A stretch of 64,000 bases of DNA. It comes from Octopus vulgaris (lineage: Eukaryota). Made by a program: the position numbers and the translations under genes. Shown here one piece after another: positions 5,220 to 64,000 of the stretch. Under the pieces are notes generated by a model. The model ran no database searches, was not told where the DNA came from, and worked only from the letters and a program-made list of their open reading frames with translations. The stretch's first letter is position 1. The number at the start of each line of letters is the position of its first letter. The stretch covers positions 35,588,001 to 35,652,000 of the forward strand of contig OX597815.1 in NCBI GenBank assembly GCA_951406725.2, in the 5' to 3' direction.

Positions 5220-5670
5220 TATGGATAAGGACAGCTGCATAAAGGGCTGAGCTCTAATTGTGGAGGGTACCTGTGGAAGGGGTAGACCCAGGATGATGTG
5301 GGACGAAGTGATGAAGAAGGATCTCTGGATGCTGAGTCTCACTGAGGAAATGACAAGGGGCTGGGAGTTGTGGCAATTAGCTGTACTTGATAAGATGCAT
5401 CAAGCTAAGTAAAAATGCTGTCTTCCACACATACAGGTTTGTCTTTTCAGATGCTAGTGCCATTTAAAAAGCACCCATAAGGATGCTGCATTAACACACG
5501 TGTGTCAGTACTGCATAAACGCACCCAGCAATTGGCATTAGGAAGGGCATCCAGCCATAGAAACTATGCCTCAGTTGGAGTCCAATAGGCTCCCTGCTCA
5601 CCAGCTCCATGTCAAACTGTTCAACCCATGCCAGCATGGAGAGCAGACATTAAATGAGGATGATGATGAA
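5220..5670 (+). mobile_element. RTE-clade LINE 3' fragment
   Basis: Translates VEGTCGRGRPRMMWDEVMKKDL...EEMTRGWELW (RTE GRPR..W C-terminus), then 3' UTR and (GAT)n tail. Confidence 0.75.
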
Positions 5671-6447
5671 GGCCTGCTCACTCCCTCAATTTATACATTG
5701 TGTCTGGTGAGACTGGTGTTCTCTGAAAATGTTCAAAAACCCCAAATCCCCAGAGCATTACTGCGAGTGATTTCAAGGGAGTGGAATAGGCAAGTGTTCC
5801 AACAAACATCATCTGACATGTCAGTAAGAATACTAACTCAAAAACCTATTTTTTTATCAGCACACCTCTCACAAATGTCTCATAAATTGGAAAGCTAAGT
5901 TATCAAGATTGCAATATTTCAGTGTCATATTTCATTCAGTTACGGGGAGGGGGAATAATGTCTCATCCATTTCTGTCACATGCTTAGAGTTAAGTATTAG
6001 CTACAGACATGCTTTGGCCATATTGGAGCCTCACTAGTGGGGCATAATCAAACTTGATCAGGGGCATTTCCGAAAATATTTGCGAAGATTTTAACCATTT
6101 GCATAATTAAAAAGAAATAATAAATAAAATAAGCTAAGGGAAATAATTCAATTGCTCTGATGGCATGAATTTGGAATGACGTACGCAAGTTTTTGTTTTT
6201 TAAATTGAAATCTCCCTCGTAGTTGGAGAAAGAAAATAAAAACTTATCAGCAATTGTTAGTAACTCTCACTATTTTCGAACGAGCTGTGGTTGATTTCAT
6301 TATGCTCCTACGCTTATTAGAGTTATCCTGTTATCTCGGACTCCATCTAGCCAGTAGTAACAAAACAGATATTTGTGATTTTATTTTTTTGTCATATCAA
6401 GTCATGCGCATTTGTCTGTCAATGATTCAGCATTTATTGTCAGATAT

Positions 6448-22539: not shown

Positions 22540-22606
<67 letters not shown>

Positions 22607-22612
<6 letters not shown>

Positions 22613-22985
22613 GTGAAGGGAAGAAGTGGAGCCGAACGAAGATTCTACAAAATTCCTTTTTATTATTTTCTACACATGTTTCAAAGGCTGCAAATTCCCA
22701 AATTCGGATTGTATAAGGAGACCATTCTGCAGCTTTCTCTTCAAGAAAATCCAGGTGCCATTTTTACCATGGGCTCCTAGGGAGCGTTTTGTTCGAAAAG
22801 CTTGCTGCGCATTTGTTTTGAGATTTTAAATTCCTGGATTTTCCTGAAGAGAATGCTGCAGAATGGTCTCCTTATTCAATCCGAATTTGGGAATTTGCAG
22901 CCTTTGAAACATGTGTAGAAAATAATAAAAAGGAATTTTGTAGAATCTTCGTTCGGCTCCATTTCTTCCCTTCACTAAATATATA
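22607..22985. repeat. Inverted pair of Penelope-type pLTR fragments (arms about 150 bp, spacer about 77 bp)
   Basis: 22607-22755 is the reverse complement of 22833-22985 with few mismatches; abuts (TA)n; each arm carries a hammerhead motif. Confidence 0.85.
22838..22923 (+). ncRNA. Type I hammerhead ribozyme motif
   Basis: Helix I auuuuc/gaaaau; CUGAAGA 22844-22850; stem II gaa.gcugca/ugcagc.uuu; GAAAC-AUGU-GUA. The mirror copy on the minus arm has UUGAAGA. Confidence 0.75.
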
Positions 22986-26620: not shown

Positions 26621-26779
26621 ATCAATATTTAGATAGGGCGTGAAGAACTTATCCATAGTTGTTTGATATTTATGGTGCATCATCCTCAATGGTGGAACTA
26701 TCCACTTTGTAGACACCACATATAATCTTTTTTTCCTTCCCGATTGCGGTCGTTATCAGCAAAAACTTAAATGCCCTCT

Positions 26780-28032
26780 GGTGCTACTATAGTGTGATAT
26801 CTACCTTACTATTTGTGATCTACCGTAAATGGCAATGCACTCTACCAAACAACCCACTTACGGCCTTCAGCAATTAATTCTAAGCTATTTAGTTGTTCAC
26901 ACTAGCACCATGCTGGCCAGAGACTTTTACTCAAGTGATGATGAAACGGTGTCTTTTTTTGAGAGAGCACAATCTTATTGACCAGGTAGGAAATGTGTCT
27001 CCTTGTCATAAATGCGGGACACAAATGAAAAAAAAAAAAGAAAGAGGATTAGAACCGGAGAATTCTGGCCAATATTGAGATGTCCAAATAAAAGGCGCCA
27101 AGCTCAGTTCGGGAAGGAAATCAGTTTTTGCACTATACCGTCTTAAATGGGAAGATGAATAGCAGATTGAATGTGTTAAAATTTTAGAATTATTGTCCTA
27201 TTTTATTCACGAAATCCTGATGAGTACTTTACTGGAAAGTTGCCTACTACTATTACAGACTGGTTTAATATGTGTCGTGAAGTTTGTAGCGTGATAATAT
27301 CACACCAAACGAGGAGTGAAATGATTGGTACACAGGAAAATCCTATACAGATCGACGAGGCATGGTTTGCTGGTTGTTGTAAATATAACTGTGGTCGTAT
27401 GTTGACTGGTGATCAACCTCCGAACTCAAAGGAATCTGATGACGAACTTAGAAGAACCATGGGGCATAAATGGCCCCTGAGTTTTTGGTCTGTAAAATGG
27501 GCTTGATTGTCGGTACTTTTATGTTCAACGAAGAGATAGGGTCACTTTGATTCCTATCATAGAACGTGAATGTAAGCTTAGCTCTATGAGTAGCCGTCCT
27601 ACCGTTGCTTAAAGAATATCGGCTATCAGCACAAAACCGTCAATCATCAAGTGTATTATATGGACCCGACATCAGGACCTCACATACAAGCTTTTGAGCG
27701 ATCGTGGCTTGAGGCCAAGATTGAAATATTCAAGAAAAAAAAGAAGCGTACCTACTCAACATTTTCAATCACTTTCGGATCATTATTGTTGGAAAATACT
27801 TAGGAAGAACGATGACCTGTTTACTGCTTTTTTTTAATGATATCAGATCAGTTAACAAACACTAAAATCAATATCTGATGATTTAAAAAAAATTATATAT
27901 AATGTGTTACTGATTTTGAATAAATTTTACACAAGCTGTTTGTTATACTCCTTTCTTCTTCTAGTATAAATGTTTAATGATTTTTAACATATTTCACATT
28001 ACCAACATTTGGTAGATATCATATCATGGTAG
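26780..28032 (+). mobile_element. Merlin (IS1016/IS1595-related) DNA transposon relic
   Basis: Fragments PCHKCG, DWFNMCREVC, IQIDEAWF..KYNCGR, VQRRDRVTLIPII and GYQHKTVNH...HIQAFERSW, with multiple frameshifts. TIR-like 26784-26805 versus 28011-28032 (18 of 22 match). Confidence 0.88.
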
Positions 28033-28039
28033 AAAATTA

Positions 28040-29164
28040 ATGGCGCGCTTAAAGTAGAATTTCGCCGACTTAGGATCTTACCACACTTGTGTGTTACTGA
28101 AATGTTTAACAAAATACTTAACTATTTAACATAGTGAGATGAATATTAGATGACTCACTAAAACCTTCATATAAATGAATAATTTTGACGTCAGTTTCCT
28201 ATCAGGGAACACATTTCAGTTGATCGTCAACAACGTCTCTCTTCTGTCTGCCATCCCTTCTCTCTTTTATGTGTGTGTTTGACATAAATACAGAAACGAA
28301 TACCTCACTAAACTAGAACATCAAAAGTCATGATTCTCACGATCCTCCAGTAAATTTCCCATAATTTTATAGGTTCCGAAATACCGCCAGAAAAACTAGC
28401 TGTGATAATAGGCCATCGATGTACACAGTCGTAAAGGTGCTTGACCTCTGCTTAGGATATTGCATTCATGATCACAAAATCTTGATTTCGATTCTACCAA
28501 CTTCACTTAAATTGATTGCAAAGAATATTACAAACGTTTTGGCATTTATAGAGGAAGGTGGGTGCTACTATTGTATATCCAACATCCATTATGTAGATAT
28601 ACTATAGTAGAAAATGGATGTTGGATATACAATAGTAGCACCCACCTTCCTCTACAAGTGCCAAAACGTTTGTAATATTCTTTGCAATCAATTTAAGTGA
28701 AGTTGGTAGAATCGAAATCAAGATTTTGTGATCATGAATGCAATATCCTAAGCAGAGGTCAAGCACCTTCACGAGTGTGTACATCGATGGCCTATTATCG
28801 CAGCTAGTTTTTCTGGCGGTATTTCGAAACCTATAAAATTATGGGAAATTTACTGGAGGATCGTGAGAATCATGACTTTTGATGTTCTAGTTTAGTGAGG
28901 TATTCGTTTCTGTATTTATGTCAAACACACACATAAAAGAGAGAAGGGATGGCAGACAGAAGAGAGACGTTGTTGACGATCAACTGAAATGTGTTCACTG
29001 ATAGGAAACTGACGTCAAAATTTATTCATTTATATGAAGGTTTTAGTGAGTCATCTAATATTCATCTCACTATGTTAAATAGTTAAGTATTTTGTTAAAC
29101 ATTTCAGTAACACACAAGTGTGGTAAGATCCTAAGTCGGCGAAATTCTACTTTAAGCGCGCCAT
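28040..29164. repeat. 1.1-kb palindrome (arms about 551 bp, 22-nt spacer)
   Basis: 28040-28590 is the reverse complement of 28613-29164, with about 8 differences counted by eye. Confidence 0.97.
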
Positions 29165-29249
29165 ATAAGCCCGCATAATTTTTTAATTCTTGGTTTCAGA
29201 AAACTTGTGTACTCAGAATTTGTGTACTCCACACGGGAATTCACACAAC

Positions 29250-29826
29250 TATATATGAATATAAGTATACATATATATATATATATATATACATACACAT
29301 ATATATATATACACACGCGTATATTCACACATATATGTATACACACACGCACACACATATATATACACAAACAAACACACATATATATACACATATATAT
29401 ACATATATATACACATATATATATACATATATATATATACACATATATATACACATGTATATATACACATATATATATACATATATATACACATATATAA
29501 ACATATATACATATATATACATATATATACACACACATAAATATATATACACATACATATATATATATACATACATATATATATATATATATATACATAC
29601 ATACATATATATATACACATACATATATATATATATATACATATATACATATATACATATATACACATACATATATATATAAACATATATACACATACAT
29701 ATATATACACACACACATATATATACATATATATATACACATATATCTATACATATATCTATATATGTATGTATATATATACATATATATATAAATACAT
29801 ACATATATATACACATTTATACATAC

Positions 29827-29884: not shown

Positions 29885-32378
29885 CAGTACGCAGTGAGTT
29901 TATGAGTGGGATAAATAATTTGTCCTGTGATGCAAGCTGGAGGTTTTTCAAAGAAAGAGTGTACGAGATTTGTAGTAACATTCTTGGCTTTGTTGTAAAA
30001 AAAAAAACACCAAGTTTGGTTTGACGATAATGATGAAGTTAATCTTATCTTAGAGGAGAAGCGAAAGGCAGTGGCTACATATTTCAAGGCTGTAAAAGCA
30101 ACAGTGCAGAGGAATTGGTGGTGTGATAGATGCGATAAAATCCAAGAAGCCTCAAATGCTAACAATTCTAAACTTTTTTACTCTCTTGAAAAATGTTTAT
30201 GGACCAGTTTCATCAAAGGTTGTGCCACTTCGGTGCAAGGATGGCACAGAATTATTAACAAATCCTAAAGATATTGTTGGGAGGTGGAAAGAACATTTTG
30301 ATGAGTTGCTCAATAGACCCACTGAAGTTGATCTCTCTTTTCTTGATAATATACCCGAGAGACCAATAAAACGTCTTATAGCAGAAGTTCCAAACCTGGC
30401 TGAAATAAAAGCAGCAATTAGGAAATTGAACAATGGAAAAGCCCCTGGTATGGATGGACTAGATGCAGTGATATATAAATATGGTTGTGATCATCTTTGT
30501 GCAATGCTGACGGATGTGATTCCTCCGGATTGGCGTGATGCAACTATTGAGATACTATATAAATCTAAAGGTGGAAAGGATGTTTGTGATAATTATCGCG
30601 GCACCTGTCTGTTACCTGTTGCTGGAAAGGTCCTTTGTAGGTTAATGCTGGATAGATTGCTTCTGCACATTGCTGATGAGGTTCTACCAGAATCGCAATG
30701 TGGGTTTAGGGATAGTAGTAGTACTATTGATATGATATTTTCGGCTAGACACTTGCAAGAGAAGTGCATCGAACAGGATATGGACTAATACCTGGTTTTC
30801 ATTGACCTAACAAAAGCGTTTGACTCTATCAATAGAATTGCACTTTGGGAGACCCTAAAAAGCTAGGATGCCCTGAAAAATTTGTGAGAATTTCATAACA
30901 AGATGGAAGTGAGAGTTAATGTTAGGGGTACCTTATCAGATCCAATTTCTGTAGAAAATGTTCTAAAGCAAGGTGATATTCCTGCTCCTGCACTGTTTGC
31001 TATACATTTCGCAATAGTCTATCAAATAGCTTTTAAAGATTGCCTTGAAGGGGTCTACATAAGATATAGGACAACAGGAAAACTGTTTAATCTCAAAAGA
31101 CTCTGTGCCAAAACGAAAGTTCTGCATTCTCACCATGTTGAGTTTCTGTGTGCAGATAATTGTGACCTGTTGGCACATTCTCAGAAAAATATGCAGCACA
31201 AAGTGAATGCGATTTCTGCAGCATGTGCAGTATTGGGTCTAACAATCAATCTAAAAAAAACTGTTGTAATGTACCAGCCCGCTCCCTCCAAGATGTATGT
31301 GGAACCTTTTATAACTGTGAATGGTCAAAGGTTGGAGACTGTACCTAGATTTAGTTATTTAGGAAGTACCTGGAGCACTGCTGGTCTTGATGATGAAATT
31401 TCATACAGAATCAGCAGGGCTAGTAATGCTTTTCGTAGGATTGATAGGCGTCTGTAGAAACAACATAATATATCTTCACGGATTAAAGTGAAGGTATGTA
31501 ACACATGCGTCTTCCCATCAATGTTATATGGAAGTGAGGCAAGGGTTGTTTATTGTAGGCAGGTAAGGTAATTGGAACGATTTCATCAATACTGTCTGAG
31601 AAAAATTTTGGGGATAAACTGAAAAATGTCCATTAATAATGTGGAGGTGCTTGAGAGGAGTGGCAGTAGAAGTATAGAGTCAATGATTTTGCAAAGACGT
31701 TTGAGGTGGGGGGAGAACATTCGGTAAGGATGAGTGATGAGCGACTGCCCAAGCAGCTATTGTATGGTGAGCTGGAAGATCGTAGGTGACCAGCGCATAA
31801 GCCTAAACTAAGGTTTAAGGATTGCGTTAAAATTGCTCTAATAAAGAGAGGAATTGCAGCTTGTAATTGGGAGAGGGAGGCACAAGACCGTGATGGATGG
31901 GGGAAGATAGTGCATGATAGTTGTTCAAGGTTTGAGAGGGAGAGAGTGAAGTATGAGAGAATAAGGAGGGGGCTTAGAAGGGGGGAACCTGTGGAAAGAG
32001 AGAGAGTTTTGCTTTTTATATGTGTGGCTTGTGGGCGGAGGTGTTTGAGTCGTGCAGGCCTGGTGAGCCACGAAAATTCTTATAGAAATCGACCCATGAT
32101 AAACAATGATGTGGCTATTAAAATTCATAGCAAAACGTGTCTAAAATGTGGAAAGGTGTGCCTCTCAGTTGGAGGTTTAAAAAGATATGTTAAGAGAGTG
32201 CATATGGTGGCACCTGTTACTCCTGCCAGCCAGCACAGTTGTCTAGTATGTAATAAAATGTGTAAAACACTGGCTGGGCTTAAAAGTCATATAAGAGCAT
32301 CACATGGCAACAATCATGAATCATGTCAGTAAGTCTTCTTGGCAATGGTTTTTCTCGTGCAACGAGGATGCAGCTGTT
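29885..32378 (+). mobile_element. RTE-BovB-like LINE, 5'-truncated, ORF2 pseudogenised
   Basis: RWKEHFDELLN, GKAPGMDG, DNYRG, LPESQCGFR, FIDLTKAFD, LKQG, LCADNC (decayed YADD), FSYLGS; C-terminal C2H2-like fingers; stops and frameshifts. Confidence 0.95.
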
Positions 32379-35174: not shown

Positions 35175-35450
35175 CAGCTCATCCCATATGTTCTGTCCGA
35201 TTTTACCTTTTTTAAAATTGAATGAAATTTAATAGTATTTTAGAATGTCTAATGGAATTAAAATTATTTTTATGCATTTGTGTACATTTAAACTAATTAG
35301 ATATTATAATACAGAATAATAAAATTAAAATTTCTTTGAATAAAACCCTTTCTAACATGTAAGTATCCAAATAACATTTAAGGCACATAATGCTTTATGA
35401 GTACAAAAAAGGAAAGTCTGCAGCCGAAGCGACTCGAAACATACACTCAG
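35174..35450 (+). mobile_element. Mariner transposon 5' fragment
   Basis: HLRHIMLYEYKKGKSAAEATRNIHS matches the mariner N-terminal HTH; candidate TIR after TA near 35174. Confidence 0.75.
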
Positions 35451-36185
35451 AGATCTTCGATGCTGCCATCCCGAACTACAACCGGGCTCTGGCTGCCAGC
35501 GATTTTAAGGATAGTATTAGTTACATACCAGACCCTATCCCCACCAAGGGAAAGCGCCACCGGAAAGTACTGTGGTTCACACTGCCATTCTCTTTAAGCA
35601 GTAGATAAGAACTTCCTTTGTTTAATTGATAGACACTTTCCTCGTACCAATATAGTTTACGAAATATTTAATAGACATACTCTGAGACTATCTTTTAGCT
35701 GTGCACCTAGATTAAAAAAAGATTTTAGTAGGTAGACCCAGACCCAAGACTGAAGCATGATGCTCATGTAGGGTTAACACAACTTGTCCACTAAACGGCC
35801 AATGCAATACAGAAACAGTTGTTTCCGAGGCAGAAGTACAGCTTCAGGACCCAATGGACAACCGATCGTGCAGAAATATGTGGAGGCAACGGAAGGCCCC
35901 TTCAGAACCCGCTATAATAACCACAAGTCCTCATTTAACATTCTAGAGAGACTAACGCCACGACCCAAGCCAAGCACAACTGGGCTTTAGAAGAAAGCAC
36001 CACGGAGTACAGCATAAAGAGGAAGATCATGGAAAGATGCAATCCGTACTTCAATAGTAGCAGGAAGTGCAGACTATACGTGGCTGAGAAGAGATCGATT
36101 TTAAAAGGTACCTAACACCCAGATGTTTACCTCAGTAACAGGAGCGAGGTGTTTAGTCCTTTTCTGCATGAAAAAAAGTATATTC
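35448..36185 (+). mobile_element. Penelope-like element C-terminal linker and GIY-YIG remnant
   Basis: EIFDAAIPNYNRAL, RKVLWFTLPFS, CSCR..CPLNGQC, YVEATEGPFRTRYNNHKSSF, KCRLYVAEK; frameshifted. Confidence 0.85.
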
Positions 36186-42064: not shown

Positions 42065-42101
<37 letters not shown>

Positions 42102-42132
42102 CAAAATAAGCAACAAGGATATCCATAGTTAA

Positions 42133-42224
42133 TGCAATACGATCGTTTCATGCGACTCCATTTAACTGATCAATGTAATCATTTCATTACATCAATTTAA
42201 AATGTAGAGCAATCTTCAGCTGCA
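42133..42224 (-). ncRNA. Type I hammerhead motif (left arm)
   Basis: Mirror of 42423-42514; CUGAAGA and GAAAC-GAUC-GUA intact. Confidence 0.65.
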
Positions 42225-42422
42225 CAAAGACATAGAATTTAATTAAATTAGAAGGACACATTAGTATAATTTTACCTAAAATCTCCAACAGGATAAGGAG
42301 ATAGACAAAAAACATGTTTTACCAACATCATAGTTGTAACTTATCATAGTTGTAACTACACATTAGGTATAATTATACTAATGTGTCCATCTGTTCTAAT
42401 TTAATTAAATTCTATGTCTTTG

Positions 42423-42514
42423 TGCAGCTGAAGATTGCTCTACATTGTAATTTGATGTAATGAAATGATTGCATTGATCAGTTAAATGGAGTCGCATGAA
42501 ACGATCGTATTGCA
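42423..42514 (+). ncRNA. Type I hammerhead motif (right arm)
   Basis: Helix I ugcag/uugca; CUGAAGA 42428-42434; stem II uugc/gcau (U-U at the base); GAAAC-GAUC-GUA. Confidence 0.68.
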
Positions 42515-43252
42515 TTACCTCTGGATATCCTTGTTGCTTATTTTGATTTAAATCACTTTATTTTGAAATTGTATGGATAATACCGTACTAAATTCTGGTG
42601 CCTCAACCTAAGTACCATATTCATCTGAATCTAAATTTATATATATATATATATATATAATGTGTGTGTTTGTCACCCACCACCGCTTTCCAACCGGTGT
42701 TGGTGTGTTTACGTCCCCGTAACTTAGTGGTTCGAGAAAGGGATTAATAGAATAAGTACCAGGCTTTAAAAAAATTGTACTGAGGTCGACTCATTCGACT
42801 AAAAATTCTACAAGTCGGTGCCCCAGCATGGCTGCAGTCTAATAACTGAAGCAAGTAATAGATAAAAAGAATAGATGATTTGCCATAAACATCCCCAAGA
42901 AATAACGATAAAATAAATCAAATATTAATCAATGGCATAGTTAGTGTGTGCGGCCCGAAACAGCCCTTGTTTCCCCACCTGCTCACGGCCCCACCAATCT
43001 TATACAGGCTTATACAACAAACTCAAAATACCGCCCCACCATAATAGCGTCGCCCGGACGAACCGTCTCCAAGTACCCGCTCCCTAACTATTCTATTGAT
43101 ATTAATTCATGAGGTTCATGCAGAACCGTGAGACTCCAAACAATAATTTGTCTGTCCATTCTAAATACGTTCTGGAAGATTCTGGTCGCAGTTATTTTTC
43201 ATCATTGGAGAACATTTCCTTTTCGATAACGTCAATGACCAGTGTAAAAGAA

Positions 43253-47904: not shown

Positions 47905-48218
47905 CACCGTGATCACCGTGATCACCGTGACCGACCAGGCTATCAGATGTAGTTACACATCGCTGGTCACAATGTGTTCGCATTGTTTTAGCCTTCGAAT
48001 GACGCCACCCCGCTGGCTATGCGAGCAGGCCAACAGAAGAAAGAGTGAGAGAAAGTTGTGGTGAAAGAGTACAGCAGGGATCACCACCCCCTGCCGGAGC
48101 CTCGTGGAGCTTTTAGGTGTTTTTGCTCAATAAACACTCACAACGCCCGGTCTAGGATATCGAAACCGCGATCCTACGACCGCGAGTCTGCTGCCCTAAC
48201 CACTAGGCCATTGTGCCT
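47905..48218 (-). mobile_element. SINE family B, tail type 3
   Basis: Family-B head and body, different tail ending (cacggtgat)n. Confidence 0.8.
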
Positions 48219-48509
48219 TTGCAAACTGAAAAAAGTCTTTTTTCAATGGAATTTAGAAAACATTAACTAGCTAGCCATGTGTGCATGTATAAATGTGTGC
48301 TTGTATTCATATGTATATGCATACATATTGATATATATATATATATTTATATATATGTATTATATATACATATATATAAATATATATATTTATCAATATG
48401 TATGCATATACATATAAATACAAGCACACATTTATACATGCACACATGGCTAGCTTGTTAATGTTTTCTAAATTCCATTGAAAAAAGACTATTTTTTTCA
48501 GTTTGCAAA
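48218..48509. repeat. Near-perfect palindrome of about 290 bp
   Basis: tttgcaaactgaaaaaagtc...catattgata mirrored about a TA-rich centre near 48362. Confidence 0.92.
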
Positions 48510-55036: not shown

Positions 55037-55700
55037 TTAACCCTTTCGTTACTATATTTCTGACCAAAATACACCCCTTATGTGTTTCAATTAATTTCTA
55101 ACGTAATCATAAATTCAGTCTGGTTTCATTAAACATTTATAACTTTTTTATTTATCAATGTATTAACGTGAATTTTGGAAGATAATTTAATGAAATGTTC
55201 TCAACCAATTCTATACTATAATTTTTGTCACAAAGTGACTCTAATTGCAGGTAGATACAGGTAAATTCAACAAAATATAAAATTATTAAAATTTTGTTCA
55301 AACATCGCTATAGAAAATGGGTTATTAGCTAATATTCAATTGGGTATACAACAAAATTTTACGATAGAATTTGTTATTCTGGGTAACTTTCTGATACCCA
55401 TAATAATATTTATGGCAAAATAGGCCTTAATTTCATTTAATGTTGTGGGAAATAACAAACTATCCTTTCTTTCGCTTTGTTTACGTTTAGCGTAACGGTT
55501 CGTTTCCGCCATAATGATTTCAAATGGGCTCATTCGAAAAAGTAAAAAGAAATAGTCGAAGGCTTTACTCTTCTGGGAAAGTCTGTGGCTTGGTCCAGTT
55601 TCTTCAGAAAAATCACCGAAAGAAACAGTTTTTAAATTTTCACTCCATTCAGGTGCCAATTCATTTTCTTTATCGCTGTCGGAGCTCTCGGATTCACTGT
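55037..55700 (-). mobile_element. piggyBac-like transposon, deleted derivative
   Basis: TTAA+CCCT end at 55037. ORF 55336-55659 (FDYFFLLF..EIIMAETNRYA..TTLNEIKAYFAINIIMGIRKLP) resembles the piggyBac transposase N-terminal half. Other end not found. Confidence 0.8.
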
Positions 55701-56130
55701 TTTCACTTTAATCGTTGCACACTTGCAAAGAGACAGGAGGAGATATTAGGGTGATAGCATCAGTGAAGCAGATCGCTCCCTTTTTGTGTGTGTGTGTGTG
55801 CGTGTGCTATAGCCCACACTAAGAAAAGCACTTGACTAACACACCAGAATGTGAGTTTTCTCTAAATTTTGCTTAATTGGGGTTGAAATTTTAAAAACTG
55901 GACCTGGCACGACCCGATTTATTCTACTCTTAAAAATGCTAGGTAAATTGTAATTGAAGAAATCCTATATTGTAGATTTCTATAAGAGACAAAGGGAGGC
56001 AGATAAAATCTGCCTTTTATAATAACAGATGACTCTACATGGCCGGCGAGACCCCGACTTTCCGCCGCCGCCCAGCCCGCCCCAACCAGGCCTTTCGCGA
56101 TACCCTTAAAGTCGTGAACGTTCAGCACCT

Positions 56131-62599: not shown

Positions 62600-64000
62600 C
62601 CTTTTTCCCTTTTTCTCTTTAGTGTTTTTTCTTCTTTCTAAAGCTGTGCTTTATATTTTTTAATGAACACACTTTCCTTATTTAAACGGAATTGGGTTGA
62701 TAGAGAGGGAAGATATGGTATTTCAGGTTTATATTTACAGGGCATTGGTCTAGATGTTTGCTTACGGGAATTAGTCTGTCCCTCAAGGTTAAACTAATTT
62801 GACCTATGTAGTCTCCACCACACTCTCCACATTTGGGAACATAGACTAAGTTCTTCAAAGCACAGGGGAAGTGATTTTTTAATGGTAAAACTTTGACCTG
62901 ACCTAAATTTGTATGTTGAGCCCTCTAAGAGGAAGATGCAAGTTCTGCAGTTAGGGCGGTTGCGTATTTGGCTAATGAGGTTGTATTTTTGGTGGGTAAT
63001 TTGGCGCTGGTGAATAACTTTTTTTAGGGATTGCGGTTGTCTTTTGCTTTTAATAATCCAGTATTTCCAGTGCCTTTTCTATTCGTGGGTCCTTCATATG
63101 GAGGGGTATATTTTGGTGGGTGATGTTTTATGCTTCCATGTTCCTCAGAGTGTGTGTTGATATGAAAGATAAAGTTTTCAGTGTGTCATGGTGCCTTCTT
63201 GTTTTCCGTAATTCTTGGTTGTCTATCATTTTTGCGCATTCTATTCCGTTTTTTATTAGATTGGCCGGGTATTTTCTATCTAGTAATGTGTTTTTAAGTT
63301 CTTGGAGTCGCTTTTCTCGGGTTTCAGGATATGATGCAATCGTGCAAATTCTTCCAGCTAAGTTAAACGATATATTTATTTTAGTATGTTTTGGGTGGCA
63401 GGAGGAGAATAGAAGATATTGTTTTGAGACCGATGGTTTGAAGAAGATGTCGGTTTCAATCTTAGTATCTCTCTTTATTATTAAGATGGCCGGGAAGGGT
63501 AGTTGTTGGTGGTTGTATTCCATAGTGAATTGGATACTGTGATCAATGCTGTTGATTAAGTTTTTAAATTCTGTGAGTTGTTCAATGTTATGCGGCCAAA
63601 GGATGAAACAGTCATCCAGATAGCGTTTCCAGTTGGTAAGTAGGTATTTTTGGAAATTTTCCCCAAATTTTAATCTTGCGTGTTCGTATATTTGGACTTC
63701 CAAGTATGCCATGACAAGGTTGGCAAAAGTAGGTGCTACTCTCGTTCCCATCACCGTGCCCGATTTTTGTCTATAAGGGTTTTCGTTGAAATTGAAGAAG
63801 TTGTTCTGTAGAATGAACCTTATTCCTTCAACGATGAATTCTTTTCCAATTTGGTCAGGAAAGTCATTTGAGAATTTTTCAAGTCAGTATTGCTTGGCTA
63901 TTATTCCGAATTCGTGAGGAATCGAGGTGTAGAGGTTTATTACATCGAATGAAACCAGAAGGGAGTCCTTGCTGGTTTTGCTCGGGAGATACTTTAAAAA
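62600..64000 (-). mobile_element. Penelope-like retroelement RT plus GIY-YIG, decayed, runs off the window
   Basis: LVSFDVINLYTSIPH, GTVMGTRVAPTFANL, WKRYLDDCF, YLLFSSCHP, NLVYVPKCGECGGDYIGQ; in-frame stop and frameshifts. Confidence 0.93.

What the first reader, a model, noticed from the sequence alone, without database searches (positions are those of the whole stretch)
28040..29164. 1.1-kb near-perfect palindrome abutting a Merlin transposon, with Merlin-TIR-like sequence at its apex
The arms (about 551 bp, about 8 differences, 22-nt spacer) start 8 bp after the Merlin right TIR-like sequence. At the centre, ggtgctactat (28561, mirrored ending at 28642) is identical to the first 11 nt of the Merlin left end (26780). 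The spacer reads gtagatatactatagtagaa, a further inverted TIR-like copy containing the mini-palindrome tactatagta. Inference: an inverted duplication made by aberrant transposition or hairpin opening at a Merlin end, or a Merlin-derived foldback element. Arm divergence argues against a simple read-foldback artefact. No TSD found.
Basis: partly seen in the sequence, partly recalled or inferred. Interest (0 to 1): 0.75.

Follow-up and report, generated by a model that had tools for sequence, protein, structure and literature searches.

The report
Fold-back copy inside dead Merlin end
A 550-base stretch covering the tip of a long-dead jumping gene and the DNA beside it sits next to a backwards copy of itself; the palindrome is real and single-copy, and it likely arose from one ordinary DNA-copying slip rather than from the transposon's own enzyme.

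Summary
The palindrome is real: arms 28040-28590 and 28613-29164, 7 substitutions plus 1 indel, 22-nt loop, single copy in G000. Contigs from other runs show the left junction, the apex and both arms' alleles.

The apex (28591-28642) is the Merlin's own right end: two forward subterminal units ending in the terminal repeat, followed by a decayed 8-nt target duplication. The right arm is native DNA. The left arm is a reverse copy of the last 30 nt of the element plus about 520 nt of flank, inserted between two subterminal units, with 4-nt microhomology.

Neither breakpoint lies at a transposase cut site. The arms are about ten times younger than the family, and no close intact transposase was found. 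An outgroup contig runs through the right arm without folding back.

Best reading: a one-off template switch (type 1-4-3-2), equivalent to a single-copy Pack-TIR made without transposition. Two of 31 other copies of the family also carry inverted self-copies, one at the same repeats; enrichment is not shown. This scan noted the same kind of event in other genomes. Ordinary; low interest.

The parts
26621..26779 (+). Left part of an older dispersed repeat (R) that the Merlin split
   Evidence: In 12 of 28 loci found with the arm, this stretch lies directly beside the match to 28644-28712; the alignment runs across the empty site
26772..26779 (+). Left copy of the decayed 8-nt target duplication (TGCCCTCT), inferred
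   Evidence: Spacing in repeat R fits an 8-nt duplication; 4 of 8 identical to the right copy (sequence)
26780..28043 (+). Broken Merlin-family transposon: left terminal repeat, transposase remnant with stops and frameshifts, first right subterminal unit (about 28012-28043)
   Evidence: Family of dispersed copies; ends aligned; tblastn to PF12762-bearing frames; translations
28040..28043 (+). Outer junction; ATGG fits both the Merlin unit and the reversed right flank
   Evidence: a random inverted join gives 4 nt or more in 2.0% of trials; bridged by a contig of X20
28040..28590 (-). Left arm: derived reverse copy of 28613-29164
   Evidence: It begins inside a third repeat that continues only beside the right arm; 4 arm-specific changes by outgroup
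28591..28612 (+). Loop: single-copy part of a forward Merlin subterminal unit
   Evidence: Aligns with right-end units of L049, L058, L048 and L054; spanned by the X1 contig 28560-28643
28613..28642 (+). True right end of the Merlin (terminal unit ending GTAGCACC); first 30 nt of the right arm
28643..28650 (+). Right copy of the decayed target duplication (CACCTTCC), inferred
28643..29164 (+). Native flank forming the rest of the right arm: repeat R (28643-28712), a second repeat fragment (about 28709-28783), sequence with no other match found, and the start of a third repeat
   Evidence: colinear in the outgroup contig of X11
29132..29252 (+). Third dispersed repeat running across the outer end of the right arm
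   Evidence: All 10 of 10 loci examined align across 29160-29164 (38 other matches)

Best explanation
The left arm is a reverse copy of the Merlin's right end plus about 520 nt of flank, inserted inside the element's right subterminal repeats, likely by one template switch during DNA replication or repair long after the element had died. Inferred steps, read along the bottom strand: synthesis ran leftwards through the flank and about 52 nt into the element. It then switched to the complementary strand 22 nt behind, either by folding back on itself or by using the other strand of the fork. It copied about 550 nt in reverse and returned to the Merlin template at the shared ATGG. The result has the order 1-4-3-2 of the four-point model. 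Both arms have since changed independently. No function is indicated.
For: Shown: the layout is Merlin body, reversed Z, loop, Z, flank. The host repeat is continuous across the element through the right arm. The third repeat continues only beside the right arm, 10 of 10 loci. The arm is single-copy. The outer junction has 4 nt of microhomology, chance 0.020. By that outgroup, 4 of 8 arm differences arose in the right arm and 4 in the left. The arms differ by 1.3%, while family copies lie a median 7-8% from their majority and the closest sampled pair differs by 6.2%. In one search, matches of 50% identity or more had open frames of at most 165 aa, and frames of 300 aa or more were under 50% identical. 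Known: type 1-4-3-2 creates an inverted repeat (PMC5453318, passages). [quoted passage not shown]
Against: The ancestral letters at the apex were not seen: the outgroup's 75 further letters were among rows the tool did not print. The apex microhomology (ATT, about 3 nt, chance 0.061) is therefore inferred from family units, and a unit may have been lost. The apex region folds no better than shuffles (z 1.19 and -0.04), so no strong priming hairpin is shown. The copied piece is far longer than the short events in the passages read of PMC5453318, which also argue for inter-strand rather than fold-back switching in apes. The breakpoint sits near a terminus, which PMC8277862 expects more from repair after excision. 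Arm depth is about twice the unique Merlin depth in X1 (85.5 vs 48) and X2 (99.8 vs 53.8) but not in X19 (8.19 vs 7.45). Genome searches score only the best candidates, so a young copy or close transposase could have been missed.
Confidence: 0.72

Rival explanations
1. Same copying event, but started by transposase. The element was excised or nicked in trans by another Merlin enzyme, and gap repair from the right flank folded back 52 nt into the element before finishing.
For: The switch lies very near the right end. In L132 an inverted 173-nt internal copy sits between the last subterminal unit and the final 7-8 nt of the terminus, with the 8-nt target duplication intact. Many copies are internal deletions. 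Intact Merlin frames of 298-357 aa exist in the genome.
Against: The arms are about ten times younger than the sampled family. The terminal repeat had already mutated when copied: both arms share a change at 28631 that the outgroup lacks. Intact frames are under 50% identical, and my scan for terminal repeats in the 10 best PF12762 loci returned no GGTGCTAC-type end.
Confidence: 0.18
2. Direct aberrant transposition: hairpin opening at the end, or sister-chromatid or hybrid-end transposition, made the inverted duplication.
For: The duplicated piece contains the terminal repeat.
Against: These routes put a breakpoint exactly at the terminus and usually leave a new target duplication (recalled, not from a call). 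Here the breakpoints are at 28040-43 and about 28590, the terminus-flank junction is copied intact, and no direct repeat flanks the palindrome.
Confidence: 0.05
3. It is an independent Merlin-derived foldback element or MITE inserted next to the Merlin.
For: Palindromic families are common here, and unchecked earlier notes describe Merlin foldback families in this genome.
Against: Single copy. The arms are a patchwork of local repeats colinear with the host site. The Merlin termini are at the centre, not at the outer ends.
Confidence: 0.02
4. Assembly or library fold-back artefact.
For: No listed contig spans the whole structure. The apex is bridged in 1 of 4 runs laid, with just 31 letters on each side.
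Against: The left junction appears in X20 (27967-28296, 2 differences) and, with only 30 letters on the arm side, in X2 and X19. Both arms' alleles at four sites appear as paired contigs in X1 and X19. X3's contigs break at 29164, as expected if the arm has two neighbours. These runs come from five studies; one may be the source of the assembly.
Confidence: 0.03

Closest known systems
Four-point template switch, type 1-4-3-2 / 3-2-1-4 (PMC5453318; passages seen)
   Same: Same order of switch points; creates an inverted repeat around an uninverted spacer from local sequence.
   Different: The copied piece here is about 550 nt; the passages read concern short mutation clusters and favour inter-strand switching.
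Single-copy Pack-TIRs made by transposition-independent gap filling (PMC8277862; passages seen)
   Same: An old terminal-repeat element holds a nearby filler between intact ends, single-copy, with short microhomology, arising after the family stopped moving; the outgroup appears to lack the filler.
   Different: The filler is the element's own end and adjoining flank, reversed, so a near-perfect palindrome results; the breakpoint is subterminal, not internal.
Fold-back inverted duplications in human (PMC3907307; passages seen)
   Same: Single-copy spacer between the copies and a few bases of inverted microhomology.
   Different: Those are megabase-scale, have spacers of 766 nt or more and go with terminal deletions through a dicentric; this one is 0.55 kb with a 22-nt loop and the locus continues on both sides.
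Merlin superfamily (PMC8101967; passages seen)
   Same: The host element has 5'-GG termini, terminal repeats of about 26 nt, 8-nt target duplications, internal tandem repeats and IS1595-type transposase remnants.
   Different: The palindrome itself is not an element; the window copy is broken and carries the filler.

Membership tests
Merlin superfamily (host element 26780-28642) | Terminal inverted repeats of 24-462 bp starting with GG | tested here: met
   The 26-nt family terminus was found at left and right ends: 8 matches with up to 1 mismatch, 0 in the reversed control; ends aligned
Merlin superfamily (host element 26780-28642) | 8-9 bp target site duplication | tested here: met
   8 of 8 in L040 and L047, 7 of 8 in L041, 8 of 9 in L055: the 4 copies with both ends called. 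Also L054 (7 of 8) and L053 (8 of 8), read. The window copy is decayed, 4 of 8
Merlin superfamily (host element 26780-28642) | DDE_Tnp_IS1595 transposase domain | tested here: inconclusive
   Window fragments give no Pfam hit. The sister copy L032 hits PF12762 at E 0.0012, below the cut-off. PF12762-bearing frames match L032 at E down to 6e-15 and the window at E 3.5e-6 to 0.009. Too decayed for a direct call
Foldback transposon / MITE (palindrome 28040-29164) | Multiple dispersed copies with shared outer ends | tested here: not met
   Only the two arms match over their length
Foldback transposon / MITE (palindrome 28040-29164) | Target duplication at the outer ends and insertion into a host sequence | tested here: not met
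   No direct repeat at the ends; the right outer end lies inside a repeat that continues unbroken
Template switch type 1-4-3-2 | Inserted piece is the reverse complement of nearby downstream sequence, spacer not inverted | tested here: met
Template switch type 1-4-3-2 | Ancestral state known from a relative, fixing all four switch points | tested here: inconclusive
   The outgroup contig shows no fold-back, but its letters before 28595 were not displayed
Single-copy Pack-TIR (gap filling) | Single copy, nearby source, microhomology at a breakpoint | tested here: met
Single-copy Pack-TIR (gap filling) | Capture after the element's activity ended; filler-free element at the outgroup locus | tested here: inconclusive
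   Ages fit and the outgroup has the element's right end with its flank; the filler-free junction was not read directly
Hairpin opening or alternative transposition | Breakpoint or symmetry axis exactly at the element's terminus | tested here: not met
   Axis near 28601, terminus at 28642; outer junction inside a subterminal linker. The criterion itself is recalled

The most novel reading that the evidence does not exclude
The palindromic subterminal repeats of this Merlin family are a lasting fold-back hot spot that keeps making inverted self-copies long after transposition stopped. The three cases have arms that differ by 17% (L132), 3.7% (L131) and 1.3% (this one), and two break in the same right-end repeats. 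Such events would be the raw first step toward the mirror-armed Merlin elements noted elsewhere in this genome.
Probability: 0.2. Interest if true: 0.45.

Novelty: new member of a known kind. Interest (0 to 1): 0.2.

Why it matters
As it stands it is a well-resolved, datable example of a known repair or replication scar, with an outgroup. A 550-bp, 98.7% identical inverted repeat with a 22-nt loop has persisted in runs under four organism labels (A, B, D, E), although such repeats are recalled to be unstable in yeast and human genomes. If the family-wide hot spot held up, it would give a route from ordinary Merlin copies to foldback elements without transposase. No gene, RNA or function is tied to it.

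Tried and rejected
Pfam on the 80-aa frame in the left arm and its mirror in the right arm: no hit.

Folding of the apex and subterminal units as single-stranded DNA: no better than shuffles.

Gene context: Pfam on 105 open frames of the window gave only mobile-element domains and one sub-threshold CAMSAP CH hit at 5542-5895. The CAMSAP CKK exons lie on C4, so that hit was dropped. No host gene was identified, and short exons would have been missed.

Hot-spot test: 2 of 31 other family copies carry inverted self-copies (33 loci, with L035/L047 one copy and L031 the window). I did not count three other 'IR near' rows: a 65-nt 76% hairpin beside L138, and flanking repeat pairs at L146 and L042. 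None of 23 further loci of related or intact Merlin families had such a repeat over the transposase match. The difference is too small to mean anything, and a background rate for single-copy events was not obtained: only 2 of the background repeats were searched.

X20 lacks cover at 29177-29200 and X2 at 28376-28433; holes prove nothing.

Literature: three searches listed no paper on this locus or on such events in this family. Only passages of four papers were read, and no supplements.

Full report
Observation. The palindrome is as described: arms 28040-28590 and 28613-29164, 7 substitutions in 551 columns plus 1 indel, and a 22-nt loop. A search of the window's genome (G000, 2.8 Gb, C2) with the left arm returned only the two arms over their length, plus 37-73-nt matches to two older repeats. 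The organism is likely an octopus; this rests on unchecked earlier notes and recalled repeats, not on a test here.

The neighbouring element. 26780 onward belongs to a dispersed family about 71-91% identical to the window copy. It has GG-starting terminal repeats and 8-9-nt target duplications in all 4 copies with both ends called. Its decayed transposase is related to PF12762-bearing frames. These features fit Merlin as described in passages of PMC8101967. The family's right end carries one to four tandem subterminal units of about 30 nt before the terminal unit.

Where the element really ends. In the window the first unit ends at 28043. The apex, 28591-28642, aligns in forward orientation with the remaining units and the terminus of L049, L058, L048 and L054. 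The element split an older repeat: 26621-26779 and 28643-28712 lie side by side in 12 of 28 loci. The spacing at the empty site matches an 8-nt duplication, TGCCCTCT versus CACCTTCC, 4 of 8 identical with four transitions. The element therefore spans 26780-28642, and the left arm lies inside it.

Which arm is the copy. The outer end of the right arm falls inside a third repeat that continues to about 29250; 10 of 10 loci align across that point. On the left the same repeat is cut off and joined to the Merlin unit at ATGG, which fits both sides; random inverted joins reach 4 nt in 2.0% of trials. The right arm is native and the left is the inserted reverse copy.

Is it real. Seven public runs were laid as contigs, on single-arm stretches. 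The left junction appears in X20 (27967-28296) and, with 30 letters on the arm side, in X2 and X19. X1 and X19 each show paired contigs carrying the left-arm and right-arm alleles at four sites. Arm depth is about double the unique depth in X1 and X2 but not in X19. X1 has a contig across the apex (28560-28643, 1 difference), the only one among the 4 runs, and X3's contigs break at 29164. No listed contig spans everything, and one run may be the assembly's source. The junctions and allele pairs nevertheless come from five studies and four organism labels.

Age. X11 (organism C) has one 768-nt contig covering 28595-29206 with 44 other letters in 647 laid (about 6.8%; 35 nt counted twice because of a local tandem repeat). 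I infer that C lacks the fold-back. Against C, changes at 28655, 28800, 28827 and the extra base near 29021 arose in the right arm; those mirrored at 28658, 28770, 28775 and 28997 arose in the left. The event is thus about one fifth as old as the split from C. Family copies lie a median 6.8-8.1% from their majority in three regions, the window copy 6.4-11.4%, and the closest sampled pair differs by 6.2%, against about 0.6% per arm. No close intact transposase appeared among 145 matches.

Mechanism. Shown: the layout, the direction of copying, the outer microhomology and the relative ages. Inferred: one two-step template switch, order 1-4-3-2, which passages of PMC5453318 describe as creating an inverted repeat. 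Whether the strand folded on itself or used the other fork strand cannot be told, and the apex does not fold better than shuffles. The whole fits single-copy Pack-TIRs formed by transposition-independent gap filling (passages of PMC8277862). It resembles in miniature the fold-back duplications of PMC3907307 (passages). Repair after excision in trans remains the main rival, because the switch lies 52 nt from the terminus. Hairpin opening and alternative transposition would need a breakpoint at the terminus (recalled), and there is none.

Other copies. Among 31 other family copies, two carry inverted self-copies. L132 has a 173-nt internal piece, 29 differences, placed between the last subterminal unit and the final bases of the right terminus, with its target duplication intact. 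L131 has 298-nt arms with 11 substitutions and a short loop; no right end or second target copy was found within the 10 kb fetched. None of 23 further Merlin-related loci had such a repeat over the transposase match. Long inverted repeats are common in arbitrary DNA here (33 rows in 399.9 kb), and the 2 searched are high-copy families, so a fair background is missing. A hot spot is possible but not shown.

Novelty. Three paper searches listed nothing on this locus. Unchecked notes of this scan describe the same kind of event in other genomes and Merlin foldback families in this one; I did not test them. Verdict: a real, single-copy template-switch duplication inside the end of a dead Merlin, a new member of a known kind, interest 0.2.

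Noticed in passing
L132:4097-4626 (G000:C6, about 12.228 Mb; also L053): A Merlin copy of this family with a 173-nt inverted internal copy (83% identical) inserted between the last subterminal unit and the final bases of the right terminus; 8-nt target duplication intact.
   Followed up: partly
L131:3413-4030 (G000:C23, about 8.297 Mb; also L060): A deleted Merlin copy folded back on itself: about 300-nt arms, 11 substitutions, short loop, then unrelated repeat sequence; no right end found in 10 kb.
   Followed up: partly
L083:2097-3646 (G000:C1, about 20.002 Mb): A young high-copy palindromic element with about 650-nt arms; several copies repeat one arm at about 359-nt steps.
   Followed up: partly
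L112:5402-5924: A very young MITE-like family with 217-nt arms, many copies 99-100% identical, some in tandem arrays at about 560-nt steps.
   Followed up: partly
window 42099-42548, 22603-22985, 48218-48509: Further palindromes of 290-450 nt, about 90-95% identical; the first two stand next to TA runs and are probably MITEs.
   Followed up: no
window 28346-28463 in run X19: Left-arm and right-arm allele contigs have depths 2.7 and 5.3 and total arm depth is near the unique depth, which could mean one chromosome lacks the left arm; depth is too low to say.
   Followed up: no
window 28708-28742: The outgroup contig (X11) carries these 35 nt twice in tandem; the window has them once in each arm.
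   Followed up: no
G000:C1:98627956-98628789, C14:35685503-35686525, C7:81031323-81034177, C1:70340766-70342365: Pairs of PF12762 matches on opposite strands within 0.5-3 kb; possibly mirror-armed Merlin elements of other families.
   Followed up: no
window 30096-32329, 35375-35605, 55339-55707, 63131-63883: Remnants of a LINE-like element (reverse transcriptase, downstream zinc fingers), a Mos1-type HTH, a DDE_Tnp_1_7 transposase and another reverse transcriptase.
   Followed up: no
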